Positions 1-56,030 of a DNA stretch of 56,030 bases are shown here, piece after piece. The number at the start of each line of letters is the position of its first letter. Within the stretch, counting starts at the first letter, position 1. Where the stretch lies: IMG/VR virus record IMGVR_UViG_3300035703_000118, positions 1-56,030 of that record. One strand, given 5' to 3'. The position numbers and the translations under genes are program-made. This DNA is from a virus. Its lineage: Duplodnaviria > Caudoviricetes. Below the pieces are notes generated by a model, which was given only the letters and a program-made list of their open reading frames with translations, had not been told where the DNA came from and did not search any database.

Positions 1-127
1 GGTAAGCTTCGACTGGGTTTGCCCTGAGCCTCTGCGCAGCCTTTGCAGTCGCTCCTCTGCCGTCAACCTTACCTTTTCTTTTCGCGGGTATCGCTCTCTC
101 ATGGTCGCAATTCTCTTTGCTTCGGAC
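1..127. repeat. Terminal direct repeat, copy 1 (circular assembly overlap)
   Basis: Bases 1-127 are identical to 55904-56030, and an ORF reads through the join. Confidence 0.95.
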
Positions 128-492
128 TCTGGGCTTCTTGCCCACCCGTAAGAACCATCGCCACCTGCCGTGCAGTTCAGGCCCTTGTTTTCGTGCCCAT
201 ATGTTCCCATCTTTTCAATCCAGTAGATTTCACGCTCGCAAAGTGCCTCCTGCCCCAGCGTTACTTCTTCAAGGATTTCTTGGATAATGTTGTCTTTGCC
301 GTGTTTTCTGATCCAATTGGAGACCGGAATGTTTCCACGCTTTGTTTCGGCATTGTGAATGTGACCAGCAAGCCGCGAGCGGGGCTTGGCGGATGTGGTC
401 TTGCCGACGTACCTGATTCCGTCTTCCGGGTGACAGGCGCATCTCAGGCCGTATATGAAACCGCCTTTTTCGTGCTTTAGGTATCCAGACAT
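1..492 (-). CDS. GIY-YIG homing endonuclease, 5' part (continues at 55903..55577; 272 aa in total)
   Basis: Manual translation from ATG 492 gives MSGYLKHEKGGFIYGLRC...RYVGKT...R...H...EREIYWI...GLNCTAGGDG, matching GIY-YIG motifs. It is in frame with ORF 55577..56005 across the overlap and is missed by the ORF track. Confidence 0.88.
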   Translation of the reverse strand, partial: MSGYLKHEKGGFIYGLRCACHPEDGIRYVGKTTSAKPRSRLAGHIHNAETKRGNIPVSNWIRKHGKDNIIQEILEEVTLGQEALCEREIYWIEKMGTYGHENKGLNCTAGGDGSYGWARSPESEAKRIATMRERYPRKEKVRLTAEERLQRLRRGSGQTQSKLT

Positions 493-542
493 AGTGCCAG
501 TGTAACACGCCTCAAAGCGATAAGTGATGCTTCTCCGCAAGA

Positions 543-577
543 GAAAAGCCCCCAGCAAGTGCCAGGGGCTTTTCTTT
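543..577 (-). terminator. Intrinsic terminator after the major capsid gene
   Basis: Inverted repeat GAAAAGCCCC...GGGGCTTTTC with A/T runs on both sides. Confidence 0.8.
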
Positions 578-3126: not shown

Positions 3127-4680
3127 CTACTCTTTTAGCGAGTTGGCAACTGCCTCAAACCGCTCCACCAATTCACGCATTTCATCTAAACGAAAACTTT
3201 GCAAAGCGTTCGACAGAATATCGGTTCGCATGTCATTAGCACCGACATCGTTACCGCCCGTGTTGTTGCCGCGCCCCTGATCGGGCGATGCGGCCTGGGT
3301 GTTTATGTCCGTGTCAACATCTTTACGCGGCAATGAAGCCGTGTTGTTCGGCAGCATGACGCCATCAGGAGCCTTGTCGTGCAGTGGTGCCACGTCGAGA
3401 ATGTCGAGGATGTTGGAGCGACCCTCGTCGGCGTGGAGCAGACCAGTGCCCCAGGCGATGATGGAGCGTTGCATTTCGCGGTACGGGTCAGGCTCTTGGA
3501 TGGGGTCAAACCACATCTTCGGAACCGGCATCGAGAAGGCGGAAAACACTTCGGCGTAAAACTCAACCCACTCATCTTGTCGGAAGCGCATGGCGTTGAT
3601 TGTGGACGGCGTAAGCGACTGCGCCGCACCATACGATGAGCCAGCCGCAGCAGAGTCCGACAGAAGCTCGATGTTGGGCACGTCCAGCGCCGCCGCCATC
3701 ATGGCCGCAACGGGGCGTGCTGAAGTGAAGTCGTAGCCTTTACCAGCAGTGTTGATCGCCTGGAGGTCTTGGCCGTCCGTCATCACCGCAGTCTGGCCGT
3801 GGCCGGTAGCGTTTTTCACCTTCGTGGATGTGGCGGTTGCCGCCTTGCCGCTCTTGGTGGTGATCTTGTACAGCATTTTCGACAGCGCCTCATTAACGAC
3901 GCGCCCGTAGCGCATAATCTCCGAATACGCTTCGTACCAGGGCAGTGCGGCAATCGAGTCTGGCAGGCCCATCGGCCAACCCGTTTGGCGGTTAAAACGC
4001 TTCACAACTGCCGTGACGTTAGCCGCAACCGGAACGCGCTCGTTGTTTACAGTGAGGCTCGTTTGGCGCGCACCCGTGAACTTATTGGTGTAGAACCACT
4101 CTTTACGCACCTTGCCAGATTCCGCAGCGGGCCACGTTCGCTGAATGGCCCAAATCTCGTCGGGGAAGTCGGGGTTAAACCGAATGTCGCTAACCTGCTC
4201 CAGCGGGAACGACCGCACTTCATCCAACGACGTGTAGCACAACGCAATCCGCACACCATCCGTGTACGCGCAACGCTCCATCTCAGAATGTGCCGACGCG
4301 CCAAACAGGTTGTCCTGGTTTACTTGCCGCTCATAGAAGCGCCGCAGACGGCTGGGAGCGCCAGCCTTCTTACTCGGCTCGACCCCTTCGATGTGGATGC
4401 CTTTCGCCCACACATACCCGCGCCGCAGGTTCACGCCACGCTGCATGAGGCTACCGCCCACCACGTAGGGGCGAATAGTCTCGGAAATGTCTTTCACTTC
4501 ATCGAGCGTCAGACCTTCAGAATGGTCATTGCCGAGCACGCCGGTAATCAGCGTCCAGCCGCGATCCTCGAATGCAAGAGAGCGCCGAACATTGTCAAGG
4601 CTTTCCCGCAAGTCTTCATTTTCGTTGCGCAAAGCCTCGAATTGTTCTTCGATTGCTTGGAAAGGCGTCGATTCAGGCAT
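3127..4680 (-). CDS. Portal protein
   Basis: ~517 aa directly after terL; GWPMGLPD..AA..W...Y motif typical of actinophage portals. Confidence 0.85.
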   Translation of the reverse strand: MPESTPFQAIEEQFEALRNENEDLRESLDNVRRSLAFEDRGWTLITGVLGNDHSEGLTLDEVKDISETIRPYVVGGSLMQRGVNLRRGYVWAKGIHIEGVEPSKKAGAPSRLRRFYERQVNQDNLFGASAHSEMERCAYTDGVRIALCYTSLDEVRSFPLEQVSDIRFNPDFPDEIWAIQRTWPAAESGKVRKEWFYTNKFTGARQTSLTVNNERVPVAANVTAVVKRFNRQTGWPMGLPDSIAALPWYEAYSEIMRYGRVVNEALSKMLYKITTKSGKAATATSTKVKNATGHGQTAVMTDGQDLQAINTAGKGYDFTSARPVAAMMAAALDVPNIELLSDSAAAGSSYGAAQSLTPSTINAMRFRQDEWVEFYAEVFSAFSMPVPKMWFDPIQEPDPYREMQRSIIAWGTGLLHADEGRSNILDILDVAPLHDKAPDGVMLPNNTASLPRKDVDTDINTQAASPDQGRGNNTGGNDVGANDMRTDILSNALQSFRLDEMRELVERFEAVANSLKE

Positions 4681-4699
4681 AAAACCCATTCTATCGCAC

Positions 4700-6322
4700 C
4701 TACATGGGCCAACCTTCAGAGGTGATTAGGTCGTGAAAACCAAAATCGGGGATTTCTTCAGGCTCAATGGCAACGACGCTACCGAGCCTTCCAATCTCAT
4801 CCCGCATGTCTTCGGGAATGTAAAACGAATACCAAGCCGCGTCAGCAAAGTCAGGAGACTTTTTGCCCTCTTTACGCATGTCGGATTTTGACTGAATCTT
4901 GATCCGGTTACGCGCATCGTATTCGTACTGGATGCTTCGCAACTGGTCGATGAAGTCTTCGTCGTCAATGTCGAGGTCAAGCAGTCCTTGGTGCGCTGCA
5001 ATCTTCATGTCGAAAAACGCTTCAGCGCGCGAATTGGTGTACGTCTTGTTTTCTCGCGCCGGATCGCCACCAGCCATCTTGTACAAGTCAAACGTCAAAT
5101 CCCTTGACGCCAAATCCTGAATAACCGCCATGCCAACGCCCGACGAGTCAACTTTCACAAACTGCCCACCGGTAGCCATCGCGAAGTCAATGATGCGGTC
5201 GGCGTTACTCGGATTATCCGGATTATGTCCCGCGAGCGGTGCGCCCTTCCAAATGGCGACACGCCGCACAATCCAGCCCTGCCTGCCCGTAGCAATGGCG
5301 GGCTTGCCGGTTTCGTCGTCAGTCTCCCACACCTCGCCCGACTGGCACGAGTAGATGGAACTAAAGTCACCCTTGTCGCTCCAAGCAATGTCAACGCCCA
5401 GGTGGATTGGCGCATCCGGGTCGGGTAGCACGTAGGCGTTTAGGCAGTTAGTGATGTCGCTTTCGCTGAACACCGTGTTGCCCGAATCGAAAGCCCACTG
5501 GCCGAGCACACGAGCAATGTAACGCGGGTCATCTTCGCCCCACTCTTCTTTGCGCTCGTTGATGTAGTTCCAGCCCGACATACCTTCAGCGCGTGCCGGG
5601 TCAAAGCCCGCCTCGCCCGTAACTAGCGGCGAGTCAAATACGCTAATGTGCATCCGGTTCCACGATTCGGTTTCTTTCACCCAAATCTTCGCCATCTCGC
5701 ACGTCGGGTCGGTCGGGTTGGCGATCAGCAACTGCCGGTTGTGGACACCTGTCGCAATATTTGCGAGTGCTCCAATCATGCCCGCATTCAAGCCCACCGC
5801 CTCGTCGCCAATAGCCAGCAGGTAGGTGGCGTGTACACCCTGGAACGCCACGTCCGACGCCTCGTTCGGCGGCTTGCGGCCCTGCCCAATCAGCACGCCC
5901 GAATCTGTTTTCCACTTCGAGTCGTTTGTCACGTACCCTGGCAACGGGTGGTCGGTCAAGCCTTCGTCGTAGCGCCGCTTAGCAAGCTCGTGGAACTTTT
6001 TGATGTTCGTCCACAAGATAGCGTTCACCTGGTCAACAGTCGGGGCGGTTGATGCCACAAACACTTCATCCAACGGGTGCGTGTCAATCCACCAGCACGC
6101 AGCAAGCGCCGCAATCCACGACTTGCCAACGCCGTGCCCAGCCGCCACCGCCGTCGCACGGTTGTCACGGATCGAGTACAGGATTTCTTTCTGCTTACTC
6201 CAAACCTGCAAGCCCATGAACTCTTCAGCCCACTTCACCGGGTCGTCGCGGTACGTCCATGCTTTAGAGCGTTGTTCGATGCGCCCAGAAGCGATCTGAG
6301 CAATGGCAGAATAACTACCCAT
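4700..6322 (-). CDS. terL: Terminase large subunit
   Basis: Q motif WSKQ, Walker A GHGVGKS, Walker B AIGDEA, motif III ANP, nuclease GVDIA and SPDFADA. Confidence 0.95.
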   Translation of the reverse strand: MGSYSAIAQIASGRIEQRSKAWTYRDDPVKWAEEFMGLQVWSKQKEILYSIRDNRATAVAAGHGVGKSWIAALAACWWIDTHPLDEVFVASTAPTVDQVNAILWTNIKKFHELAKRRYDEGLTDHPLPGYVTNDSKWKTDSGVLIGQGRKPPNEASDVAFQGVHATYLLAIGDEAVGLNAGMIGALANIATGVHNRQLLIANPTDPTCEMAKIWVKETESWNRMHISVFDSPLVTGEAGFDPARAEGMSGWNYINERKEEWGEDDPRYIARVLGQWAFDSGNTVFSESDITNCLNAYVLPDPDAPIHLGVDIAWSDKGDFSSIYSCQSGEVWETDDETGKPAIATGRQGWIVRRVAIWKGAPLAGHNPDNPSNADRIIDFAMATGGQFVKVDSSGVGMAVIQDLASRDLTFDLYKMAGGDPARENKTYTNSRAEAFFDMKIAAHQGLLDLDIDDEDFIDQLRSIQYEYDARNRIKIQSKSDMRKEGKKSPDFADAAWYSFYIPEDMRDEIGRLGSVVAIEPEEIPDFGFHDLITSEGWPM

Positions 6323-6830
6323 CCTCAGCATCCAATTCGGCGGCAATCGCTACAAGCGCCCCCCGGAACGTGTCTTCCACTTCGGCGCGCGGAACGCCCG
6401 ACTCTTCCAGGCGCTTCTCCAACTTGCCCAACGTGAAATAGAACGCCCGGTCAACAATGTCCATCAGCACTTTAGCCTGCGCGGCCTGCACCCGGTCAAT
6501 GTCGGCATCCACCTGCGCACGCTGCTTTTCCAGTTGCTCAAACACGAGTCGGATGGCATCAAGGTAGTTCTTCGTCTGGTGGGCGTCCTGACCGGATTCT
6601 GCACGGTCTTTCAACTTGCCCAAAAGGCCCTGAAGCGCGTGGAAACTCAGGCGGTACACCTGAAGCTCGCTAAGCCAGTCCAGGCTACCGGTGAGCCGGT
6701 CAATCTCCAGCGCGACGGAGGCTTCGGTGGTGTGAACTTCATCGGCAATCTCCGCAATGGTGAGGCCTTTGAACGCCAGGTCAAGGATGCGCTTATCTCG
6801 AATGCTCAAGCCCGTACCAGTAGATGCCAT
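6315..6830 (-). CDS. Probable terminase small subunit
   Basis: N-terminal HTH (GLTIAEIADEV) followed by helices; overlaps the terL start. Confidence 0.65.
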   Translation of the reverse strand: MASTGTGLSIRDKRILDLAFKGLTIAEIADEVHTTEASVALEIDRLTGSLDWLSELQVYRLSFHALQGLLGKLKDRAESGQDAHQTKNYLDAIRLVFEQLEKQRAQVDADIDRVQAAQAKVLMDIVDRAFYFTLGKLEKRLEESGVPRAEVEDTFRGALVAIAAELDAEDG

Positions 6831-6847
6831 AGTCAGGCCAGTCTAGC

Positions 6848-6925: not shown

Positions 6926-7168
6926 CTACTCTACCATCTCTGGAAGTTCAACCATTCCGCTCACGGCAAACTCAAACATGCGCTTCGGCTCGATAACTTC
7001 ACCGTCAATACTATGCTCATGCGTCCAAAGTGGCGTGATAAACACCTGCACATCCGGCCCAACCTTATCCATGTGGGCCATCACAAACACGAACGCATCC
7101 TGCACGCTCGGCACCACCTTAGCGTAGCGCGCCGTGTATTCGGTGGGGCTTTCCGACAACTGGATCAC
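6926..7168 (-). CDS. Hypothetical protein
   Basis: 80 aa in a tightly packed minus-strand operon. Confidence 0.65.
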   Translation of the reverse strand: MIQLSESPTEYTARYAKVVPSVQDAFVFVMAHMDKVGPDVQVFITPLWTHEHSIDGEVIEPKRMFEFAVSGMVELPEMVE

Positions 7169-7169
7169 T

Positions 7170-7400
7170 TTAGACTTCCGTTCGCTCTACAAAAACGTGA
7201 TCGACGTTGGGGCGGGCGCGCACATCCTCCACCAGCCGCTGCAAAATGGCAACATCGCCGGGGTTGGAAATCCACTCATTATCGACCGATTCGCCTTTAT
7301 TGATTGCTTTTGCAAGCCGATCAATCGCCGCCACGAGCGACCGGATGCTGTCACGCGACTGCCGATCCAGCGACACTTCTACGTTTTGTGCTTTAGCCAT
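7170..7400 (-). CDS. Hypothetical protein
   Basis: 76 aa, coupled to neighbours. Confidence 0.65.
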   Translation of the reverse strand: MAKAQNVEVSLDRQSRDSIRSLVAAIDRLAKAINKGESVDNEWISNPGDVAILQRLVEDVRARPNVDHVFVERTEV

Positions 7401-18131: not shown

Positions 18132-18170
18132 GGTACGCTGAAATGGTTTCTACGACAGAAGGAGGTAAGC

Positions 18171-18539
18171 ATGGTTGAGAAGTATGTGCCGAAGGTTGGC
18201 GACAAAGTACGCGCCACGTTGGGCGAGAACGTGCTAGTGGGGCGAGTAGATGACATTGGCGAGAAGTTCGGAAACTGGGTCAGCTTGCTTCCTGATGGGA
18301 TCGAAGATGTTGAGCCGTACCTTCTGAGCGGTGCCGACGGTTGGCACTTTGAGCAGTTCGTGTCCGTGCCTACGAAGTTTGGGGCAGTCATCCGACGAGC
18401 AGACGGTCGCACGTTTGTACACGCACCGAGCAGGATTGGCGACACGGTGCCATGGTTTGCCAACAGTCGGCACTGGGCGAGTACAGAAAACGCAACCGCT
18501 GGTGGTTTCACTGTCCTGTTCGACGGGGTAGACGAATGA
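18171..18539 (+). CDS. Hypothetical protein (related to 8493..8867)
   Basis: AAGGAGG RBS; shared PTxxGAVIR motif. Confidence 0.75.
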   Translation: MVEKYVPKVGDKVRATLGENVLVGRVDDIGEKFGNWVSLLPDGIEDVEPYLLSGADGWHFEQFVSVPTKFGAVIRRADGRTFVHAPSRIGDTVPWFANSRHWASTENATAGGFTVLFDGVDE

Positions 18540-20464: not shown

Positions 20465-20640
20465 GCGCGCAAACGTGTGCAGTCTGCGGGCAGGGCGGCT
20501 ACTGGGTGGGGTATGACGAACTTGCTCGCGAAGATCGGTGTCTCAACCACGTTGAGATGATGAGGACAAGCCATCTTGACCGCGCGCCCATCATTCCTGA
20601 TTCCCGCACGATCGACCTTGAGGGGGTTTCTGGTGAGTAA
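20461..20640 (+). CDS. Small CxxC...CxxH protein (59 aa)
   Basis: MSAQTCAVCG...RCLNH...EGVSGE; GTGA overlap; below the ORF-track cutoff. Confidence 0.6.
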   Translation: MSAQTCAVCGQGGYWVGYDELAREDRCLNHVEMMRTSHLDRAPIIPDSRTIDLEGVSGE

Positions 20641-21088
20641 CGAAGAACTGATTGCACGGCTGAAGAACCTGTCATTCCACACGTCAAGCCGGGAACTCAG
20701 CGAGATGGTCAGACTTGCTACTGTCGCTCTCGAAGCGCAGTCTGCCCCGCATTGCTCCAACTGTGACTACATGGAGGGCATTGAGGAGGGCATGAAGATG
20801 CGCCCTGCCCCGTTGGTGGCCGACTCGCGGGAGGCGCTGGCGAACGCGCTGGGCGTGGCGCTGGCGAACGCTTACGACGACGATTCCGTTGTGACGGTTG
20901 AGGAGTGTGTGGCCGATACTCTGCTTGCCTCGGGTGTTGTGTCTCTCGCGGCTGACCGTGACCGGGCCGAAGACCCCTACTGTCGCGCCGAGGATTGTCA
21001 GTATCTGAACTGGACTAGCGGCTCCATTCCGACTCACAAGCGCGGCTCGACGTGCCCCAACCCCTACCGTGAGAGCGAGGGCAAGTGA
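20633..21088 (+). CDS. Array gene A1 (SNEELIAR family)
   Basis: Paralog of 24166..24582. Confidence 0.75.
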   Translation: MSNEELIARLKNLSFHTSSRELSEMVRLATVALEAQSAPHCSNCDYMEGIEEGMKMRPAPLVADSREALANALGVALANAYDDDSVVTVEECVADTLLASGVVSLAADRDRAEDPYCRAEDCQYLNWTSGSIPTHKRGSTCPNPYRESEGK

Positions 21089-21175
21089 CCGAGGAAGAAG
21101 CGGCAATGATGCGTCTGCGGATCACGGCGCGCTGGATCGCACAAAATCAACCTGAACCTGAGAGCAAGGCCCGCA

Positions 21176-21616
21176 ATGACTGACTACACGCCAACCGTGG
21201 AAGAGGTGCGCGAGTTCTACAGCGACAAGTGGGATTCCTACTTTGACGAGGCGAACACGCGCGATTACATCGAAGGGCGCATCGCTGACTTCGACCGCAT
21301 GATTGCCGCTGTGGAGCGTGCTGCGGCTGTGAAAGCGTTACGGGACTTTGGCGCAGACCTGCTAGAGCGCGTTAAGCCGGTCGTGATGCACGAGGGTTCC
21401 GGTGCAGTGTTCTCTAATAGCCCGAAGGGTGACTCGACGGAGTTCTGGTCGTACTCGAACGCGAGCGCGTACACGATGGCTGTGCTCGAAGTGTTGCGGC
21501 TTCTCAGTGTCGAGCCGGAGCAGATGCAAGCGACCACCTATCACGGCGGGCGCAGTGAGCGTCGGGACTTCCAGACAGCACTGGCCGACCGTATCGAGAG
21601 TGGGGAGCAAGCGTGA
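21176..21616 (+). CDS. Array gene B1 (YTPTxEEVR family)
   Basis: Paralog of 24579..24950 and 9285..9527. Confidence 0.75.
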   Translation: MTDYTPTVEEVREFYSDKWDSYFDEANTRDYIEGRIADFDRMIAAVERAAAVKALRDFGADLLERVKPVVMHEGSGAVFSNSPKGDSTEFWSYSNASAYTMAVLEVLRLLSVEPEQMQATTYHGGRSERRDFQTALADRIESGEQA

Positions 21617-21846
21617 GTCGAGAGATTCCGGTGCGGTTCCCGCCACCGCTAGCGCAGACAAAGCGCAACGCCGAAGGGCTGCGCGTGCCCGTCATGCAAG
21701 AGCCTGTTATGGAGTGCGGGCAGACGGTTCGACTTGGCGGCAAGTTGGTGCAATGCATACGACAGGCAGGGCATCCGGTTTATGTGGCTTGGGGCCACAC
21801 GAACGGTTACGACGAGTGGTGTTTTGACGAGGAGGAGCAAGCATGA
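21613..21846 (+). CDS. Cassette gene present only in array 1
   Basis: 77 aa, flanked by direct GGAGCAAGC(G/A)TGAG repeats. Confidence 0.7.
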   Translation: MSREIPVRFPPPLAQTKRNAEGLRVPVMQEPVMECGQTVRLGGKLVQCIRQAGHPVYVAWGHTNGYDEWCFDEEEQA

Positions 21847-22133
21847 GCACTGTGGATGAGTGGGCCAAGCGAGAAGCGGAGCGCGAGTACCCGGATGCGG
21901 TTGATGGCTCGACGACATTTCGGCTGGATACAGAGCGTCAGGTTTACATGGAGGGGCTTTTGGCCGTGGCCGCTCTGTTGTTGAGCGACGAAGCCGTAGA
22001 AGCGGCGGCGCTGTCCGGGTGGCACCCCGTGGTGTGGTCCGATGTCAGCGAAGTGGTGAGAGAGTCCGAGAGAACACGAGCGCGCGCCGCTCTCACTGCC
22101 GCTTTGACCAAGATCACGGAGGACAAGGAATGA
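21843..22133 (+). CDS. Array gene C1 (STVDEWAKREAE family)
   Basis: Paralog of 24947..25276. Confidence 0.75.
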   Translation: MSTVDEWAKREAEREYPDAVDGSTTFRLDTERQVYMEGLLAVAALLLSDEAVEAAALSGWHPVVWSDVSEVVRESERTRARAALTAALTKITEDKE

Positions 22134-22399
22134 CCGCACGGGATGAACTGACGCAAGCACTAGGTGTTGCTCTCGCCAATGCTTATGACGATGATTCGGC
22201 GGTGAGCATTGAGGAGCCGGTTGCTGATGCCCTGCTCGCGGCCAATTACAGGAAAGTACCCGACAGAACGGCCCTGCGGCGAGCGATATGGGAAAGGTTT
22301 GCAGTTAGGTTCGGAGAACCTTTCAGCCCGGTTGTGCTTGAAATGACTGACGATGCAACTGACGCAATTTTGGCTTTGATGGATGGGGACAACGAATGA
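22130..22399 (+). CDS. Array gene D1 (TARDEL...DAILALMDGDNE family)
   Basis: Paralog of 25273..25629. Confidence 0.75.
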   Translation: MTARDELTQALGVALANAYDDDSAVSIEEPVADALLAANYRKVPDRTALRRAIWERFAVRFGEPFSPVVLEMTDDATDAILALMDGDNE

Positions 22400-22408
22400 G
22401 TCTGCTGG

Positions 22409-23873: not shown

Positions 23874-24173
23874 ATGACCATGAACGCAAATAGCTCGCTC
23901 AGCACTTACGGCCAATTGCCGGAATCTTTGGCGTGCGCAGAGCAGGTGGATGGCCTGTACCGCGAAGTGAACATTGCGGCGAACCGCTGGTGGGATGCGT
24001 CCGGTGGCGTCGTCGGCGACATCACTGTTGAGCCGTTCAACACCGATGGCTCGTACCGCATCTGTGTTGTGTATTGGGGTTTCAAGACTTACTTCCCCGA
24101 CCTTGCTGCCGCCGATGGTTGGGTTGAGCGCATGGAGGCGGCTCGCAACCCGAAGGGGGTTCCTGGTGAGTAA
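23874..24173 (+). CDS. Hypothetical protein
   Basis: GGAGG RBS before MTMNA; ends GVPGE at the array-2 junction. Confidence 0.65.
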   Translation: MTMNANSSLSTYGQLPESLACAEQVDGLYREVNIAANRWWDASGGVVGDITVEPFNTDGSYRICVVYWGFKTYFPDLAAADGWVERMEAARNPKGVPGE

Positions 24174-24582
24174 CGAAGAACTGATTGCACGCATTGATGC
24201 CTACTTTGATGGAGGTACACCGATTGACGCGGCAGAGAGTTTGCTGATGCGTGCTCGGGCGGCTCTCGAAGCGCAGTCTGCCCCGTTGGTGGCCGACTCG
24301 CGTGAGGCGCTGGCGCGATGGTTCGCTGAGCGGCGCGGGCATATTGTTCCGAGGTCTGGCGATGTGTTGAACGCTGATGCTCTTCTCACTTCGGGTGTTG
24401 TGTCTCTCGCGGCTGACCGTGACCGGGCGGTCGAAGATGGTTTTGAGTACCGCCGTGTTGCCCCCGGAGGGCGGGTCTGGTTTCCCACGTTTGACGAGCC
24501 GCCGTTGTTGGATGAGGGCTTCACGATGCAACGTCGCGCCGTTGGTGAGTGGCACCCCTACCGTGAGAGCGAGGGCAAGTGA
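24166..24582 (+). CDS. Array gene A2
   Basis: SNEELIAR...ALEAQSAPLVADSREALA...SGVVSLAADRDRA...PYRESEGK shared with A1. Confidence 0.75.
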   Translation: MSNEELIARIDAYFDGGTPIDAAESLLMRARAALEAQSAPLVADSREALARWFAERRGHIVPRSGDVLNADALLTSGVVSLAADRDRAVEDGFEYRRVAPGGRVWFPTFDEPPLLDEGFTMQRRAVGEWHPYRESEGK

Positions 24583-24950
24583 TGGCTGCTCGAAATTGCA
24601 TCTGCGACGGCGGCTCGTTCGATATTCGCAGTCGGCCTTTCATCGTCAACGTGCAGTGTGTTGTTCACGGCGCGTTGGGTGGGCACGCTGTGGCGGCTGA
24701 CGAGTACACGCCGACCGTGGATGAAGTGCGGCGGGATTATGCGGCTGGTCGTGACCGTATGGGCTTGGTGATTGACCTCGACACGCACGCCGACTTTGCC
24801 CGGTTCCTTGCCGCTGTGGAGCGTGCTGCGGCTGTGAAAGCGTTACGGGAAGCGGCAGTGATGTTGGAGAACCGACGGGGTAACCTCGCGTACTCATGGG
24901 AGATGGTTCGCGCCGAGGCAGACCTTATCGAGAGTGGGGAGCAAGCATGA
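24579..24950 (+). CDS. Array gene B2
   Basis: YTPTVDEVR...AAVERAAAVKALR...IESGEQA. Confidence 0.75.
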   Translation: MMAARNCICDGGSFDIRSRPFIVNVQCVVHGALGGHAVAADEYTPTVDEVRRDYAAGRDRMGLVIDLDTHADFARFLAAVERAAAVKALREAAVMLENRRGNLAYSWEMVRAEADLIESGEQA

Positions 24951-25276
24951 GCACTGTGGACGAGTGGGCCAAGCGAGAGGCGGAGGAGCGTTACCCGCCT
25001 GAGCACTATTACGGCAATTTGGATGAGTGTGATGCGGCGCAGGAAGCGGGGTCATGGGGCATCAACCGTTTGGCCGCTCTGTTATTGAGCGACGAGGCCG
25101 TGGAAGCGGGGGAGGCCGAGCAGATGAACCACGCACGCAACATCGTCTTTGATGGCGGCTGTGCCTGCGGTGAGCCGTTTCCGCTGACGCTGGCGGGCAT
25201 CCGGGCGCACGATGTTCATGTGATGCGCGCCGCTCTCACTGCCGCTTTGACCAAGATCACGGAGGACAAGGAATGA
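24947..25276 (+). CDS. Array gene C2
   Basis: STVDEWAKREAE...AALLLSDEAVEA...RAALTAALTKITEDKE. Confidence 0.75.
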   Translation: MSTVDEWAKREAEERYPPEHYYGNLDECDAAQEAGSWGINRLAALLLSDEAVEAGEAEQMNHARNIVFDGGCACGEPFPLTLAGIRAHDVHVMRAALTAALTKITEDKE

Positions 25277-25629
25277 CTGATGAGTGGACGCAGGAGCAGC
25301 TGCAGTCTCATGCTTTTGAGAAGGGGCTTGTCGTGACCGCACGGGATGAACTGGTGCAGTGGTTTGCTGACCGTAGGGTTGGCGGTGTCGCTTTGGTTGC
25401 GAGTCCTGAGGACTACGAAACGGCAGAGGCCTTGCACGCGGCGGGTTGGCGGAAGATGCCAAGCCGGGAGAACGTGATTGATCGTTTGCGCGCCGCAGAG
25501 CACGCGCCGATGTACGACCACGACGAACGCGACGGCTCATGCCGCTCGTGCCCGTGGCCGCTTCACATGCTGGCCCCGGAAGACATCGCTGACGCAATTC
25601 TGGCTTTGATGGATGGGGACAACGAATGA
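25273..25629 (+). CDS. Array gene D2
   Basis: TARDEL...RKxP.R...DAILALMDGDNE. Confidence 0.75.
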   Translation: MTDEWTQEQLQSHAFEKGLVVTARDELVQWFADRRVGGVALVASPEDYETAEALHAAGWRKMPSRENVIDRLRAAEHAPMYDHDERDGSCRSCPWPLHMLAPEDIADAILALMDGDNE

Positions 25630-25814
25630 ACCTAGAAGCACGCGCCCTAGCACTCCTTGAAGATGGCGCATCGTACACCGAAACTGCCCGCACAATCGGC
25701 AAATGTCGTAACTGGGTTGCAAGCCGCTTTCCCGGTAGGGGCTGGACAAAGCAGGAGGGCGGCGCGTATGGTTACATGATGCGTAAAGCCAACGAGAGAA
25801 TGGAGTTGAAGTGA
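25626..25814 (+). CDS. Small HTH protein
   Basis: LLEDGASYTETARTIG...WV..RFPGRGW. Confidence 0.7.
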   Translation: MNLEARALALLEDGASYTETARTIGKCRNWVASRFPGRGWTKQEGGAYGYMMRKANERMELK

Positions 25815-26648: not shown

Positions 26649-27568
26649 TGTTCACCCCAACTGGCGTGCATGGCGGGGTGATGTATTGCAAGTACGAGCA
26701 CCCCCTGACCGAATCAAACCGCAGGTGGCGTACCGATCTTCGCAGGCAAAACGGCGGGTACTGGGTGTGTCGGATTTGCGAAAAAAACCGCCAGGTTTCA
26801 CGCAACAAGCCCGAATACAAAAAGACCTTACGCAACGCCTCAAAGGGCAAGTTCTGCAATCATGGTCATGCGCTCGAAGGCGACAACATGATGTGGCATA
26901 AAGACGCGCGCCGTGAGGCTGGCGGGTTTTACACCTGCAAGACTTGCTTTCGCACCAACGCATCTAAGCGGCAGGCCAATTACCGCAAGCGCAAAGCGCG
27001 GCAGGAGCATTTCACTTACGTTGGGCCGCGAGAAATGATTGCCGAAGTTGCGCAGCAGATTGTTGATTCTGCGCTGGAAAAGACGGAGGCCGAAAAACTC
27101 GTTACGCTCAAGGCTGGCCTGGTTGCTCATGCTAGACTCATGCGGCGACCGACTTCTGAGCCTGCTACGGCGGAACAGTTTGAGGCCGAGTTCGCCCGAG
27201 CGTCCGACGAAATGTGGAAGGCAGTTGACCGGCTGATGGCTGCTGAGAAGAAAAACCCGCTGGCGCATCTGAACGTGAAGCCCGATGCTGAACGCGCGTG
27301 GGATCGGTTTAATAAGGCGCTGGAAGAGGCGCGGCTGACCGGCGAGAACGTGCCGAACTGTCAGGATCGCCCTGCGGAGTTTGTTGATTACGATGAAGAT
27401 AACTTGCCGACCGCCGATGAGGCGTATAGGCTGTGCCGCGGCGATGAAAATACGCCGAAATGCCCACTGCTGGAACTGTGTGCCGTATATGCCGAACAGG
27501 AGCGCCCCGCTTGGGGCATCCATAGTGGTGAAGTATGGGTCATGGGCGAACCAGTGAACAACGAGTAG
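26648..27568 (+). CDS. WhiB-like protein fused to two Cys/His zinc-ribbon repeats
   Basis: Two C-x3-H...N...GG-x3-CxxC repeats; C-terminal four-Cys domain (NC...LC...CP...C...WGIHSG) resembling the WhiB GVWGG turn. Confidence 0.7.
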   Translation: MFTPTGVHGGVMYCKYEHPLTESNRRWRTDLRRQNGGYWVCRICEKNRQVSRNKPEYKKTLRNASKGKFCNHGHALEGDNMMWHKDARREAGGFYTCKTCFRTNASKRQANYRKRKARQEHFTYVGPREMIAEVAQQIVDSALEKTEAEKLVTLKAGLVAHARLMRRPTSEPATAEQFEAEFARASDEMWKAVDRLMAAEKKNPLAHLNVKPDAERAWDRFNKALEEARLTGENVPNCQDRPAEFVDYDEDNLPTADEAYRLCRGDENTPKCPLLELCAVYAEQERPAWGIHSGEVWVMGEPVNNE

Positions 27569-27580
27569 AAGGAGGATCAA

Positions 27581-27991
27581 GTGAAGAAGAGTTTTATCAT
27601 TGCGGGGGCGCTTGCGACAGGGCTGGCGCTTTCTGGCTGCGCGAGCGACGCATACGTGGTTTCGGATAACCTTTCAAGGGCGGCAGACCAGTTTGAGGTT
27701 GAGCGCCGCATTGTGTTTTTCAACGGCATTACCGACACTTACCTTTTGACCATTGAGGGCCGGTGCTCGATTGAGTCAGACAATGTTGATTCACAACTGG
27801 AGGTCGTCTGCAAGATCGGCCCTGAGGAGTACGTCAAGCATTTCCTTGGCCTCAGCGACAACGTTTCGTACTTTGTTGAGCAACAGGAAACCATTGATGT
27901 CAGCGAGTACAACTACCGCGTCATCTTCAAGCCTGAGTCCATCATCCCGAACATTGACCCGCAGATTTCGGGTCTTGACGCAAACGACTAA
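27581..27991 (+). CDS. Lipoprotein
   Basis: MKK, hydrophobic stretch, LSGC lipobox. Confidence 0.85.
   Translation: MKKSFIIAGALATGLALSGCASDAYVVSDNLSRAADQFEVERRIVFFNGITDTYLLTIEGRCSIESDNVDSQLEVVCKIGPEEYVKHFLGLSDNVSYFVEQQETIDVSEYNYRVIFKPESIIPNIDPQISGLDAND

Positions 27992-54059: not shown

Positions 54060-54060
<1 letters not shown>
52582..54060 (-). CDS. Large beta-rich fibre/receptor-binding-like structural protein
   Basis: 492 aa, T/A/S/G/V-rich, TAATG-coupled to the collagen gene. Confidence 0.6.
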
Positions 54061-54744
<684 letters not shown>

Positions 54745-54752
<8 letters not shown>

Positions 54753-55089
54753 GAGTTACATCCTGAGTCCACACGGTGCGCCCTTGAAGGAAGGTGCGCT
54801 CAATGGGGCCATTGATGCCGCGCAAATCCATGAAGCCATCTGAGCCAAGAGACTGCGCTTGACCCGAAGTCATGGTTAGGATAATCACGCCATTGGCTTT
54901 GTCGCTCTGGTCAACCGTGAAGGCCACGAACTCTTCATCGCTACGGTTTTTGCGCCACTGTGCGCTAAACGTCCAAGCGGAAAGGTCTACCGGGTCACCT
55001 GCGGGTTCTGGCTCGGTGCGGAAACGGTATTCCAAATAAACGCTGTCGCCTGCGTAAATTGGGATGTCGCTAACGGTTGCCGGTGCCAT
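54745..55089 (-). CDS. Fibre-attachment (BppU/LtfC-like) protein
   Basis: I.AGD...PVDLS....AQ.R...G.I.LT....DL......G.V...DVT pattern. Confidence 0.6.
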
Positions 55090-55128
55090 GAGAGCCTTTC
55101 GTTGCCTAGAAACAAGTTTATCAGGCGC

Positions 55129-55222
55129 AAAAGGCCCCCTCGGAATCTGCCCGAAAGGAGAAGGAGGGAAAAACTTTCGGGTGACTCTACGAGGGGGCCG
55201 CGAGCGGGAAGGGCACTCGCTT
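55129..55222 (-). ncRNA. Candidate ~95-nt sRNA with C/U-rich loops
   Basis: Own TGCTAGGAT -10 (55229-55237), two hairpins, terminal GC stem followed by TTTT. Confidence 0.55.
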
Positions 55223-55237
55223 TATTACATCCTAGCA

Positions 55238-55280
55238 CGCCAAAACGCCCTGGGATTTTCAGGCCCCAGGGCGTTTAGCG
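55238..55280 (-). terminator. Intrinsic terminator
   Basis: AAACGCCCTGGG...CCCAGGGCGTTTT. Confidence 0.75.
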
Positions 55281-55309
55281 TTACCTTGTCGGGTATAACC
55301 CTATTTGGA

Positions 55310-55525
55310 TCAGGAGAAGAAGGGGCTGGCCTTCAGTTCCGTTACCAAGGTATTCAGGTAGGTGCGAACAGCCGCGAGGTCAGCAAACGACCCCGGAACG
55401 GCAGTAAGCGCCTGAACCTGCGCAGTCGGAACCGGCAGGTTGCCCACGATAACCAACGGCTCAGGATCGTGCGTGGCCGGATTGGTTGCCGACTGCGTAA
55501 GCACGACGGGCTTGGGTGAAGTCAT
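55310..55525 (-). CDS. Small capsid-associated/head-fibre-like protein
   Basis: 71 aa, ADLAAV...LN.LV.ELKA coiled motif; first structural gene after the capsid and endonuclease genes. Confidence 0.6.
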   Translation of the reverse strand: MTSPKPVVLTQSATNPATHDPEPLVIVGNLPVPTAQVQALTAVPGSFADLAAVRTYLNTLVTELKASPFFS

Positions 55526-55576
55526 GGTGTTGTCCTAACGTTAGGTGGTGCGACTAGTCGTTTCCAGTTTACCGCA

Positions 55577-55903
55577 TTACTCCACCCATTTGTATCGCTG
55601 CCCGGAAATCACCCTCCCGACCTGAGAGTTGGAAATGCCCAAAGCATTTGCTATCCGATACCTACCAAGCCCAGATCGAGACATTTGCCTAATAGTCAAA
55701 ACTTGCTCTTTGGTCAATTCGGCCTTTTTTTGAGCGTGCGAAATAACGGTTTTCGGCCTATCACTAGGCCAAGGGACGTGATTCCAGCGAGAGTTTGTTG
55801 CGATGGAAGATATAAGGCTCTTTGATACAAAAAACTGCTGGGCCAATACAACTTGCGATTCCCCATCCCAAATCCTTGCTTTGATTTCTAAAACCTGATC
55901 TTC
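55577..55903 (-). CDS. GIY-YIG endonuclease, 3' part (two HTH-like DNA-binding repeats)
   Basis: KLTEDQVLEIK...LAQQF.VS...IS.I and ELTKEQVLTIR...IA..LGIS...V..VI. Confidence 0.85.
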   Translation of the reverse strand, partial: EDQVLEIKARIWDGESQVVLAQQFFVSKSLISSIATNSRWNHVPWPSDRPKTVISHAQKKAELTKEQVLTIRQMSRSGLGRYRIANALGISNSQVGRVISGQRYKWVE

Positions 55904-56030
55904 GGTAAGCTTCGACTGGGTTTGCCCTGAGCCTCTGCGCAGCCTTTGCAGTCGCTCCTCTGCCGTCAACCTTACCTTTTCTTTTCGCGGGTATCGCTCT
56001 CTCATGGTCGCAATTCTCTTTGCTTCGGAC
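55904..56030. repeat. Terminal direct repeat, copy 2
   Basis: Identical to 1-127. Confidence 0.95.

What the first reader, a model, noticed from the sequence alone, without database searches (positions are those of the whole stretch)
55129..55237. Stand-alone small RNA candidate displaying anti-Shine-Dalgarno loops
A minus-strand unit lies between a terminator (55238-55280) and the next gene's own promoter (TGATAAACT, 55115-55123). It has an extended -10 TGCTAGGAT, then hairpin GCGAGUG-CCCUUCC-CGCUCGC. A long stem follows whose apical loop UUUUUCCCUCCUUCUC contains the 16S anti-SD CCUCCUU, closed by GGCCCCCUCG/CGAGGGGGCC plus UUUU. The loop is complementary to AGAAGGAGG RBSs in this genome (before 18171 and 27581). 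Inference: an RBS-blocking sRNA could repress leadered host or early mRNAs while sparing the leaderless late transcripts.
Basis: partly seen in the sequence, partly recalled or inferred. Interest (0 to 1): 0.7.

Follow-up and report, generated by a model that had tools for sequence, protein, structure and literature searches.

The report
Phage small RNA with anti-ribosome-site loops
A roughly 95-base folded RNA gene in this phage, and in relatives including a cultured Pseudanabaena phage, keeps a copy of the ribosome's mRNA-docking sequence in an exposed loop, so it probably blocks ribosome-binding sites; this has not been tested.

Summary
Minus strand 55129-55237 holds an extended -10 box, hairpin H1 (loop CCCUUCC), and a long terminal hairpin with a 16-nt apical loop containing CCUCCUU followed by UUUU. 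It folds far better than shuffles (z -6.7).

It is a conserved, non-coding, single-copy unit. A covariance model built from type-A copies recovers diverged copies in related phage contigs and in cultured Pseudanabaena phage Pan2. Stems are rewritten: 23 of 28 pairs carry compensatory changes and 99.1% of cells are paired. CCUCCUU stays invariant in the apical loop. A TGCTAnnnT-type box sits upstream in 11 of 13 copies. No Rfam family matches.

In the window and in Pan2, structural genes have weak or no Shine-Dalgarno sequences and some look leaderless, while early genes have strong GGAGG sites. The loop is predicted to pair strongly with 13 of 72 early and 0 of 29 late start regions.

Best reading: a new phage-borne family of trans-acting anti-SD-loop sRNAs, working like cuckoo/NfeR1 or 6C RNAs. 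Expression, timing and targets are untested. The host is uncertain (cyanobacterium per the Pan2 record).

The parts
55310..55525 (-). 71-aa gene of unknown function. It is the conserved upstream neighbour of the RNA unit.
   Evidence: ORF. No PHROG or Pfam match. Homologues were used to collect related loci.
55242..55276 (-). T1, the intrinsic terminator of the upstream capsid/71-aa transcript (GC stem, then UUUU).
   Evidence: Sequence and fold. It is nearly identical in L002, L005, L006 and L017. Analogous terminators with other sequences occur in the other types.
55229..55237 (-). Extended -10 promoter box TGCTAGGAT of the RNA. The start is predicted near 55221-55223 (inferred).
   Evidence: Boxes of the form TG(C/T)TAnnnT lie 8-13 nt before H1 in 11 of 13 copies. 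It is one of 9 TGNTARRMT sites in the window, most of them in gaps ahead of co-oriented genes.
55200..55220 (-). Hairpin H1, with a 7-bp stem including one U-G pair and the loop CCCUUCC (55213-55207).
   Evidence: The loop motif CCUUCC is kept in types A, B, C, E and Pan2 over different stems.
55133..55199 (-). Terminal hairpin with a 10-bp outer stem, a 5-bp middle stem, an 8-bp inner stem and a 16-nt apical loop.
   Evidence: Fold. Covariation. L002 has a C-G to U-A swap in the outer stem.
55158..55173 (-). Apical loop UUUUUCCCUCCUUCUC. The heptamer CCUCCUU (55167-55161) is invariant in the family.
   Evidence: invariant columns in 9 model-aligned copies; Pan2.
55129..55132 (-). U tract ending the RNA.
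   Evidence: There are 4-6 U in types A and E. L010 has CCCUUUU. L013 and L014 have no clear tract.
55115..55123 (-). Extended -10 box TGATAAACT of the next gene. It is not part of the RNA.
   Evidence: The relatives have TGGTAGAAT at this position.
54745..55089 (-). 114-aa gene (phrog_1084), the downstream neighbour in type A only.
27567..27575 (+). AGAAGGAGG, the ribosome-binding site of the gene starting at 27581 (Phage_VG64 family). It is the best predicted partner of the loop (-16.0 kcal/mol).
18157..18165 (+). AGAAGGAGG, the ribosome-binding site before the ATG at 18171. It is a 9-nt complement of the loop.

Best explanation
The stretch is a gene for a small, stable, non-coding RNA of about 92-95 nt on the minus strand. 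The inferred route is as follows. Host RNA polymerase starts about 7 nt after the extended -10 box TGCTAGGAT. The transcript folds into hairpin H1 and a long terminal hairpin that also acts as its terminator. The two pyrimidine-rich loops stay single-stranded: CCCUUCC, and the invariant CCUCCUU, which copies the core of the 16S rRNA 3' tail (a recalled motif). These loops pair directly with purine-rich Shine-Dalgarno regions of mRNAs and keep 30S subunits off them. The best predicted partners are the strong GGAGG-type sites of the phage's own early and replication genes, and possibly host genes. Structural genes are leaderless or have weak SD sequences and so largely escape. The RNA would work like the cuckoo/NfeR1, 6C or RsaE classes, but it belongs to none of them.

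Shown here: the structure, its conservation and covariation, the conserved -10 box, the non-coding nature, and the early/late split in SD strength.

Inferred: transcription, timing, base pairing and repression.
For: 1. Fold. The energy is -49.5 kcal/mol, z is -6.74, 0 of 200 shuffles fold as well, and the MFE structure takes 0.87 of the ensemble.

2. Conservation above the flanks. The flanking genes are 72-76% identical to L002, L005 and L006, while the RNA core is almost unchanged and L002 carries a compensatory C-G to U-A swap.

3. Family. Model R1 was built from 4 type-A copies. It recovers L017 (114 bits), L025 (E 2.7e-9), L014 (2.6e-6), L013 (0.023) and L010 (0.07), Pan2 (E 9.5e-7), and the terminal hairpins of L175 and L176 (E 0.01-0.02). 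Negative control: no match at E<=1 in 719,115 bases of bacterial loci that carry an H1-like 20-mer, and one match at E 0.84 in a further 181,540 bases.

4. Covariation on the 9 model-aligned copies. 99.1% of 231 cells are paired, and 23 of 28 pairs have changes on both sides. No shuffle of 500 reaches any of the five measures. Slid controls pair in at most 55% of cells.

5. Loop. CCTCCTT is the longest invariant block of that alignment. By eye, all 8 sequence types (A, B, C, Pan2, D, E, F, G) have CCUCC in at least one hairpin loop, while none of the 7 T1 loops inspected does.

6. Own promoter. TG(C/T)TAnnnT lies 8-13 nt before H1 in 11 of 13 copies.

7. Non-coding. There are 1-nt indels among type-A copies, and the antisense ORFs of the window and Pan2 share nothing.

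8. Strand. The CM scores 112.4 bits on the minus strand against 18.5 on the plus strand. The U tract and the -10 box are on the minus strand. The sense fold is the more stable in 11 of 13 copies.

9. Target logic. In Pan2, with deposited starts, SD pairing energy has a median of -4.55 for 22 structural genes against -9.75 for 76 others, p 1.5e-4, and strong SD sites occur in 2/22 against 45/76. In the window, with crude ORFs, strong SD sites occur in 5/29 against 36/72, p 3.9e-4. Loop-to-start-region duplexes beyond the 1st percentile of controls number 13/72 early against 0/29 late in the window, and 14/76 against 0/22 in Pan2.

10. Precedent. Cuckoo/alpha-r14 sRNAs have an ultraconserved anti-SD loop motif over variable stems and block ribosome-binding sites (PMC4615179 and PMC10746234, passages read). 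6C acts through C-rich loops without a chaperone (PMC6486639, abstract read).
Against: - There is no evidence here that the RNA is made.
- Pairing energies largely restate that the loop resembles the anti-SD, so they cannot show specificity. A 5-9-nt anti-SD seed would touch very many mRNAs, and titrating them would need very high RNA levels.
- 5 of 29 late ORFs in the window and 2 of 22 in Pan2 have strong SD sites, for example before 49223 and 39541. These would be hit too.
- My window gene set is a crude greedy ORF call.
- The same -10 box type is also found in the early region, at 27130 and 30074. Its total count is not above chance (9 found, 5.9 expected), so timing is unknown.
- 12 of 24 other records with the 71-aa gene lack the element. 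It is therefore dispensable or replaceable.
- In L016 the terminal loop lacks the motif. L016, L028 and L029 are assigned by eye only (R1 gives no match or E 1.4).
- The covariation counts come from an alignment fitted to the model. In types B, C and Pan2 the model aligned the middle hairpin to H1, not the true H1.
- The thermodynamic strand preference is small (at most 4.5 kcal/mol) and is reversed in 2 of 13 copies.
- The high identity among type-A copies could partly reflect gene conversion driven by homing endonucleases.
Confidence: 0.55

Rival explanations
1. The RNA is real and independently made, but its loops do not act on mRNAs. They would mimic the 16S rRNA 3' tail as a decoy or sponge for a protein or nuclease that recognises that tail, for example a toxin RNase that cuts at UCCUU-type sites or a ribosome-associated factor, or for a G-rich host sRNA.
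For: In 4 of 5 model-supported types the loop reads CCUCCUUUC, extending the match to the rRNA tail beyond the SD-pairing core. The motif is displayed in a large open loop on a very stable stem, as expected for a decoy. That actinobacterial MazF toxins cut the anti-SD is recalled, not checked here.
Against: No candidate binding partner was identified. The base upstream of CCUCC varies (C, G, A, U, A), so mimicry of the tail does not extend 5'. The second loop, CCCUUCC, is not a piece of the rRNA tail. The early/late split in SD strength is explained by mRNA targeting and not by a decoy.
Confidence: 0.15
2. It is a cis-acting module of the late operon with no trans role. It would serve as a second terminator or insulator, an RNA-stability or processing element between the capsid block and the next transcription unit.
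For: It always lies directly after terminator T1 and before a promoter of the next gene. The terminal hairpin with a U tract is terminator-like in types A and E. Highly expressed capsid transcripts often need strong termination (general knowledge).
Against: A conserved -10 box lies between T1 and H1, which a mere back-up terminator does not need. The apical loop sequence is invariant while the stems are rewritten; terminators constrain stems, not loops. T1 loops carry no such motif (0 of 7 inspected). L013 and L014 lack a U tract. The downstream gene differs between types and is leaderless in several, so there is no cis SD to sequester.
Confidence: 0.17
3. The conservation is a DNA-level by-product. 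The region would be a recombination or homing-endonuclease target zone, or the hairpins would be chance palindromes, with no RNA function.
For: A GIY-YIG endonuclease gene lies just upstream in the window. An HNH endonuclease gene is inserted between the 71-aa gene and T1 in L017. Stretches of 100% identity flank these sites in otherwise 72-76% identical relatives.
Against: Co-conversion cannot explain types B-G. These share no alignable stem sequence yet keep the architecture, the loop motifs and the -10 box. G-U pairs occur in the stems. 23 of 28 pairs carry compensatory changes.
Confidence: 0.06
4. The functional product is on the other strand. It would be either a small protein, as annotated in Pan2 (Pan2_07), or a plus-strand RNA displaying GGA/GGAGG loops.
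For: Pan2's deposited annotation places a 73-aa CDS antisense over the element. Antisense folds are nearly as stable, and more stable in 2 of 13 copies.
Against: The antisense ORFs of the window and Pan2 show no similarity (E 8.4). 1-nt indels among type-A copies would shift any frame. There is no U tract or -10 box on the plus strand. The CM scores 18.5 bits on the plus strand against 112.4 on the minus.
Confidence: 0.04

Closest known systems
Cuckoo / alpha-r14 / CcsR sRNAs of alphaproteobacteria, e.g. NfeR1 (PMC4615179 and PMC10746234, passages read)
   Same: They have two to four hairpins whose loops carry an ultraconserved anti-SD motif, while the stems differ widely through compensatory changes. 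They act in trans by occluding ribosome-binding sites. NfeR1 is described there as Hfq-independent.
   Different: The motif here is CCUCCUU(UC) plus CCCUUCC, not CCUCCUCCC. The gene is on a phage, not at the chromosomal cuckoo loci. The taxa differ. No Rfam model matches. It is an analogue, not a member.
6C / B11 sRNA of Actinobacteria, Rfam RF01066 (PMC6486639, abstract read)
   Same: It is a small RNA with C-rich hairpin loops that bind many mRNAs by G-C-rich pairing without a chaperone.
   Different: The 6C loops are C runs. 6C is a host gene. There is no match to any Rfam model at E<=10 on 55000-55400.
RsaE/RoxS and other Firmicute sRNAs with UCCC loops (recalled; mentioned in PMC4615179 passages)
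   Same: Exposed C-rich loops pair with SD sequences.
   Different: The sequence and structure are unrelated, they are host-encoded, and they are under metabolic control.
Phage P1/P7 c4 antisense RNA (review PMC12197685, passages read)
   Same: It is a phage-encoded RNA whose loop sequences pair around a ribosome-binding site to block translation.
   Different: c4 targets one specific mRNA (ant) for immunity. Here the loop is a generic anti-SD sequence in the structural-gene region of what appears to be a lytic-type siphophage.
Highly expressed non-coding RNAs of actinobacteriophages, i.e. WC1 nc_1-3, D29 and Kampy (PMC10986025, passages read)
   Same: They are short intergenic phage transcripts with no known function, some of them next to structural genes.
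   Different: No sequence or structural link was tested, and their loops were not described in the passages read.
T4 RegA translational repressor (recalled)
   Same: It is a phage-encoded factor that shuts off translation of early mRNAs by acting at their ribosome-binding sites.
   Different: RegA is a protein. Here the proposed agent is an RNA.

Membership tests
Cuckoo / alpha-r14 / CcsR sRNA family | The motif CCUCCUCCC (or listed close variants) in the loops of at least two hairpins. | tested here: not met
   The window loops are CCCUUCC and UUUUUCCCUCCUUCUC. No family member shows CCUCCUCCC. The nearest are CCUCCUCU (L016) and CCCCUCCUCUC (L028/L029) in one loop each.
Cuckoo / alpha-r14 / CcsR sRNA family | A series of simple hairpins with a conserved loop and stems that vary by compensatory change. 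| tested here: met
   23 of 28 pairs have changes on both sides, and CCTCCTT is invariant.
Cuckoo / alpha-r14 / CcsR sRNA family | A match to the curated Rfam models, and an alphaproteobacterial chromosomal context. | tested here: not met
   No Rfam match at gathering score in the window. None of these families appears at E<=10 in 55000-55400 or at E<=1 in six related loci. The context is a phage genome.
6C sRNA (RF01066) | A match to the Rfam covariance model. | tested here: not met
   no match.
Trans-acting base-pairing sRNA (generic class) | Its own promoter and its own terminator, separate from the neighbouring genes. | tested here: met
   By sequence only. There is a conserved -10 box after T1, a terminal GC hairpin with a U tract, and a separate -10 box for the next gene.
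Trans-acting base-pairing sRNA (generic class) | A discrete transcript is detected. | not testable with these tools
   This needs Northern blotting or end-mapped RNA-seq of infected cells.
Trans-acting base-pairing sRNA (generic class) | Demonstrated pairing with, and regulation of, target mRNAs. | not testable with these tools
   Only duplex predictions are available.
Intrinsic (Rho-independent) terminator | A GC-rich stem directly followed by a U tract. | tested here: inconclusive
   Met in types A and E (4-6 U) and partly in L010. Not met in L013 or L014. The generic scanner called none, because the loop exceeds 8 nt and there are fewer than 5 T.
Protein-coding gene (as Pan2_07) | A conserved open frame. 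| tested here: not met
   1-nt indels among close copies, and no similarity between the antisense ORFs.

The most novel reading that the evidence does not exclude
The RNA is a phage-made mimic of the 16S rRNA 3' tail. It accumulates to high levels and soaks up Shine-Dalgarno sequences genome-wide. This would switch the infected cell's ribosomes from SD-led messages (phage early genes and host genes) to the leaderless or SD-poor structural-gene messages. That would be an RNA-based temporal switch and host shut-off acting at translation initiation, in a phage group that includes a cultured cyanophage.
Probability: 0.22. Interest if true: 0.85.

Novelty: new variant of a known kind. Interest (0 to 1): 0.62.

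Why it matters
Small RNAs with anti-SD loops are known from bacterial chromosomes. The 2025 review of phage sRNAs has no hits for the words 'mycobacteri' or 'actino', and its single hits for 'Shine-Dalgarno' and 'ribosome binding' concern AsxR/FnrS and the c4 RNA, not a generic anti-SD-loop RNA. My five topic searches did not turn one up.

Here the RNA forms a conserved family that sits at a fixed place in the structural-gene region. It occurs in phages whose early genes use strong ribosome-binding sites while their structural genes largely do not. If the RNA does what its loops suggest, it would be a simple RNA device for timing phage gene expression, or for taking over translation.

One family member lies in the cultured Pseudanabaena phage Pan2, where the region is annotated as an antisense hypothetical protein. 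The idea can therefore be tested directly at the bench, and that annotation can be corrected.

Tried and rejected
- RNA evidence. One look-up of public runs listed no holder on record as RNA. The two runs listed are kept as contigs and are probably DNA. Laying them gave only pieces of relatives, and nothing on starts, ends, strand or level.
- Known RNA families. Rfam gave no match at gathering score on the whole window. At E<=10 on 55000-55400 it gave only four chance-level microRNA or viral hits. At E<=1 on six related loci it gave only an unrelated His_leader hit.
- tRNA or tmRNA. None in the window.
- Nucleotide search of isolated phages with 54700-56030 found no match. Searching with Pan2's element found only Pan2 itself.
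- An exact 26-mer of the stem found nothing in viral contigs. A loop 26-mer found only the three contigs already known.
- The 114-aa neighbour gave no viral loci and only 2 short-contig homologues in the protein search.
- Prophage or host copies. The portal and the 71-aa protein found no relatives in genome contigs. The host was therefore not identified this way.
- The genome search 'relatives' is not available for a virus record.
- The actinobacterial host I first assumed, from the 42% portal match to Microbacterium phages, was set aside. The genome proved syntenic with Pseudanabaena phage Pan2. The host remains uncertain.
- A MAFFT alignment of all types misaligned the inner stem, so I used a covariance model instead.
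- Cis sequestration of the next gene's SD was considered and rejected. The next gene is leaderless in L010, L014, L016, Pan2 and L175/L176.
- Pfam on the best predicted targets gave only Phage_VG64 for the 27581 gene and nothing for the others.
- Earlier scan notes had nothing on this genome or this sequence.

Full report
**1. What the window is**

The window is a complete 56,030-bp virus record with a 127-nt terminal repeat. It is a siphovirus-type genome.

- Going down the minus strand it encodes terminase (4700-6346), portal (3127-4689) and a capsid/protease-like protein (586-1803).
- Next comes a GIY-YIG homing endonuclease that runs across the record's ends.
- Then follow a 71-aa gene (55310-55525), the element, a 114-aa gene, a collagen-like protein, head-tail and major tail proteins, and the tape measure.
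- The plus-strand block at about 12.9-38 kb and the small minus-strand genes at 6.9-11.8 kb are non-structural.
- There is no tRNA.
- The genome is syntenic over most of its length with cultured Pseudanabaena phage Pan2. TerL is 82% identical at the protein level and many genes are 55-90% identical.
- The portal is the exception. It resembles Microbacterium phage portals (42%) more than Pan2's (34%).
- The host is therefore uncertain. It is a cyanobacterium if Pan2's record is taken at face value (PMC9837993, passages read: Pan2 was isolated on Pseudanabaena sp. Chao 1811).
- Pan2 has 58.6% GC.

**2. The observation**

- The 96-nt RNA 55127-55222(-) folds into H1 plus a three-tier terminal hairpin. 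The energy is -49.5 kcal/mol, the structure takes 0.87 of the ensemble, z is -6.74, and 0 of 200 shuffles fold as well.
- Both AGAAGGAGG ribosome-binding sites exist.
- The generic promoter/terminator scanner reports nothing here, because its rules need a -35 box and a short loop.
- CCUCC inside some short hairpin is common by chance: 22 of 79 minus-strand occurrences. The motif alone proves nothing.

**3. Relatives**

Three viral contigs found through the portal carry the same intergenic region.

- The flanking genes are 72-76% identical, while T1 and the RNA core are nearly unchanged.
- L002 has a C-G to U-A compensatory swap in the outer stem.
- Between T1 and H1 the sequence differs, but a -10 box persists: TGCTAGGAT in the window and TGCTACACT in the relatives.

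I then sampled loci without reference to the element, using an alignment of the 71-aa protein (A2).

- This returned 11 metagenome loci and 26 viral loci.
- I read the region after the gene in 10 of the 11 metagenome loci. L019 ends inside the gene.
- I read it in 8 of the 26 viral loci.
- Six of the other viral loci are second copies of contigs I already held.
- The 12 weak partial matches (L034-L045) were examined only with the covariance model.
- I also looked at two isolated phages found by tblastn.

Counting distinct records other than the window, 24 carry the 71-aa gene.

- Nine have an element supported by the model: L002, L005, L006, L017, L025, L014, L013, L010 and Pan2.
- Three have a variant I assign by eye only: L016, L028 and L029.
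- Twelve have none. In these the next gene follows directly, or only T1 and the next promoter are present. In L007 a tRNA-like sequence without an acceptor stem occupies the slot.

A second sampling used the 146-aa protein that follows the RNA in most types (A8). It gave three new contigs.

- Two of them (L175, L176) have a further variant, type G: a hairpin with loop UUACCUCCUUUAC, a middle hairpin, and a terminal hairpin with loop UCCUCCC.
- One (L177) has no element.

**4. Structure and covariation**

Model R1 has 94 positions and 28 pairs. It was built from the four type-A copies using my structure.

| Source | Score / E-value |
|---|---|
| Window, minus strand (the only strong match) | 112.4 bits |
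| Window, plus strand of the same place | 18.5 bits |
| L017 | 114 bits |
| L025 | E 2.7e-9 |
| L014 | E 2.6e-6 |
| L013 | E 0.023 |
| L010 | E 0.07 |
| Pan2 | E 9.5e-7 |

- As a negative control, R1 found nothing at E<=1 in 719,115 bases of GC-rich bacterial loci that contain an H1-like 20-mer. It found one match at E 0.84 in a further 181,540 bases.
- On the nine copies with E<=0.1, 99.1% of 231 cells pair and 23 of 28 pairs show changes on both sides.
- None of 500 shuffles reaches any of the five measures, and slid controls pair in at most 55% of cells.
- One caveat is that the alignment is fitted to the model. Another is that in types B, C and Pan2 the model placed the middle hairpin on H1, so helix-1 counts mix two hairpins.
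- An independent RNAalifold run on a plain MAFFT alignment still found the outer stem, with compensatory changes in 10 of 18 pairs.

In that model alignment the longest invariant block is CCTCCTT in the apical loop. Besides it, only T.GA of a GUUGA motif and a few T are invariant.

By eye, all eight sequence types carry CCUCC in at least one hairpin loop, sometimes in H1 and sometimes in the terminal hairpin. CCUUCC is kept in H1 of types A, B, C, E and Pan2. None of the seven T1 loops I inspected has such a motif.

**5. Independent unit, non-coding, and strand**

- A box of the form TG(C/T)TAnnnT lies 8-13 nt before H1 in 11 of 13 copies. L028 and L029 have GGCTAGGAT.
- After the RNA comes another -10 box for the next gene.
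- In L017 an HNH endonuclease gene is inserted between the 71-aa gene and T1. T1, the promoter and the RNA remain together as one block.
- One-base indels among type-A copies, and the lack of any similarity between the antisense ORFs of the window and Pan2, exclude a protein.
- This includes the CDS Pan2_07, which the Pan2 record places antisense over the element.
- The minus strand is favoured by the -10 box, the U tract, the orientation of the neighbouring genes and the CM scores.
- The energy difference between strands is small. The sense strand is more stable in 11 of 13 copies, by at most 4.5 kcal/mol.

**6. How it probably works**

The loops are complementary to purine-rich ribosome-binding sites. 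The genome shows a marked split between gene classes.

| Measure | Structural / late | Other / early | p |
|---|---|---|---|
| Pan2, deposited starts: median SD-antiSD energy | -4.55 (n=22) | -9.75 (n=76) | 1.5e-4 |
| Pan2: strong SD sites | 2/22 | 45/76 | |
| Window, crude ORF set: strong SD sites | 5/29 | 36/72 | 3.9e-4 |
| Window: loop-to-start-region duplexes beyond the 1st percentile of control windows | 0/29 | 13/72 | |
| Pan2, own loop: same measure | 0/22 | 14/76 | |

- Several structural genes start 6-7 nt after a TAnnnT box, which is the arrangement of leaderless mRNAs. In the window these are at 4680, 52554 and 50812. In Pan2 they are at 1525, 5992 and 18226.
- The gene after the RNA is leaderless in L010, L014, L016, Pan2 and L175/L176, with a conserved N-terminus from that ATG.
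- These energies partly restate that the loop looks like the anti-SD. They show a consistent logic, not an interaction.
- The same -10 box type also occurs in the early region, so timing cannot be read from the sequence.

**7. Comparison with what is known**

- The evolutionary signature is an ultraconserved anti-SD loop motif over stems that change freely. This is exactly what is described for cuckoo/alpha-r14 RNAs such as NfeR1, which block ribosome-binding sites (PMC4615179 and PMC10746234, passages read).
- 6C of Actinobacteria acts through C-rich loops without a chaperone (PMC6486639, abstract read).
- The element fails the membership tests for both families. The motif differs, there is no Rfam match, and the gene is on a phage.
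- A 2025 review of phage sRNAs has no hits for 'mycobacteri' or 'actino'. Its single 'Shine-Dalgarno' and 'ribosome binding' hits concern AsxR/FnrS and c4 RNA, not a generic anti-SD-loop RNA (PMC12197685, passages from a term search).
- Actinophage transcriptomes report abundant intergenic RNAs of unknown function (PMC10986025, passages read).
- My searches found no paper describing this family.
- Earlier notes of this scan describe other phage RNAs with anti-SD-like loops, together with cautions. In one phage the leaderless idea failed. In another, the likeness to 16S beyond six bases was no better than chance. I therefore tested the SD split and the motif's invariance here rather than assuming them.

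**8. Verdict**

This is a real, conserved, previously uncatalogued small-RNA gene family of a Pan2-like phage group. It most likely works as a trans-acting anti-SD-loop regulator (confidence 0.55). The main alternatives are a tail-mimic decoy and a purely cis terminator/insulator module. It is a new variant of a known kind, and it is testable in a cultured phage.

Noticed in passing
window 1-558 and 55577-56029, minus strand: A GIY-YIG homing endonuclease with C-terminal helix-turn-helix DNA-binding domains runs across the record's 127-nt terminal repeat. It lies between the capsid gene and the 71-aa gene.
   Followed up: partly
L017 544-987: A 147-aa HNH endonuclease gene is inserted between the 71-aa gene and T1 in a contig otherwise almost identical to the window here. 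Pan2 also has an HNH gene nearby (record 7044-7253). This intergenic zone looks like an insertion hotspot for homing endonucleases.
   Followed up: partly
L007 5947-6002: In the slot where the RNA lies in other contigs, there is a tRNA-like sequence after a terminator and a TGTTATGCT box. It scores 40.4 bits against Rfam tRNA, covers model positions 8-63 of 71 and has a CCA anticodon. It has no paired acceptor stem, and ARAGORN calls nothing.
   Followed up: partly
window 55283-55291, and the same place in L014, L025, L028, L017, L175, L176 and Pan2: A short motif CCGACAAGG (or CCGGCAAGG) just upstream of T1 is kept across sequence types that share little else. In L017 the endonuclease insertion begins right after it.
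   Followed up: no
ON968453.1 5772-5993 (L046 3198-3419), minus strand: The annotated CDS Pan2_07 (hypothetical protein) lies antisense over the RNA element and is probably spurious. The paper's mass-spectrometry table is in supplements that I could not open.
   Followed up: partly
window 20576-22400 versus 24082-25630: There is a patchy duplication of a gene block, seen as a dozen direct repeat pairs 3.1-3.5 kb apart at 89-100% identity (families D3-D14).
   Followed up: no
window 4680, 50812, 52554, 6830 (minus-strand starts): Structural-gene start codons lie 6-9 nt after TAGAAT, TAAACT or TAGACT boxes, which suggests leaderless or near-leaderless mRNAs. Extended -10 boxes TGNTARRMT precede several late genes at 6840, 41695, 48142 and 49280.
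   Followed up: partly
window 3127-4689 versus the rest: The genome is mosaic. Most of it is Pan2-like (TerL 82% aa), but the portal is only 34% identical to Pan2's and 42% identical to those of Microbacterium phages.
   Followed up: no
window 55090-55276: A contig of public run X1 carries a more diverged copy of 55152-55276 (22 differences, 5 gaps), in which 55090-55151 is replaced by 65 other letters. Its sequence could not be retrieved.
   Followed up: no
window 54060-54752, minus strand: There is a collagen-like (Gly-X-Y repeat) protein matching tail-fibre PHROGs. It is absent from this position in types B, C, D and Pan2.
   Followed up: no
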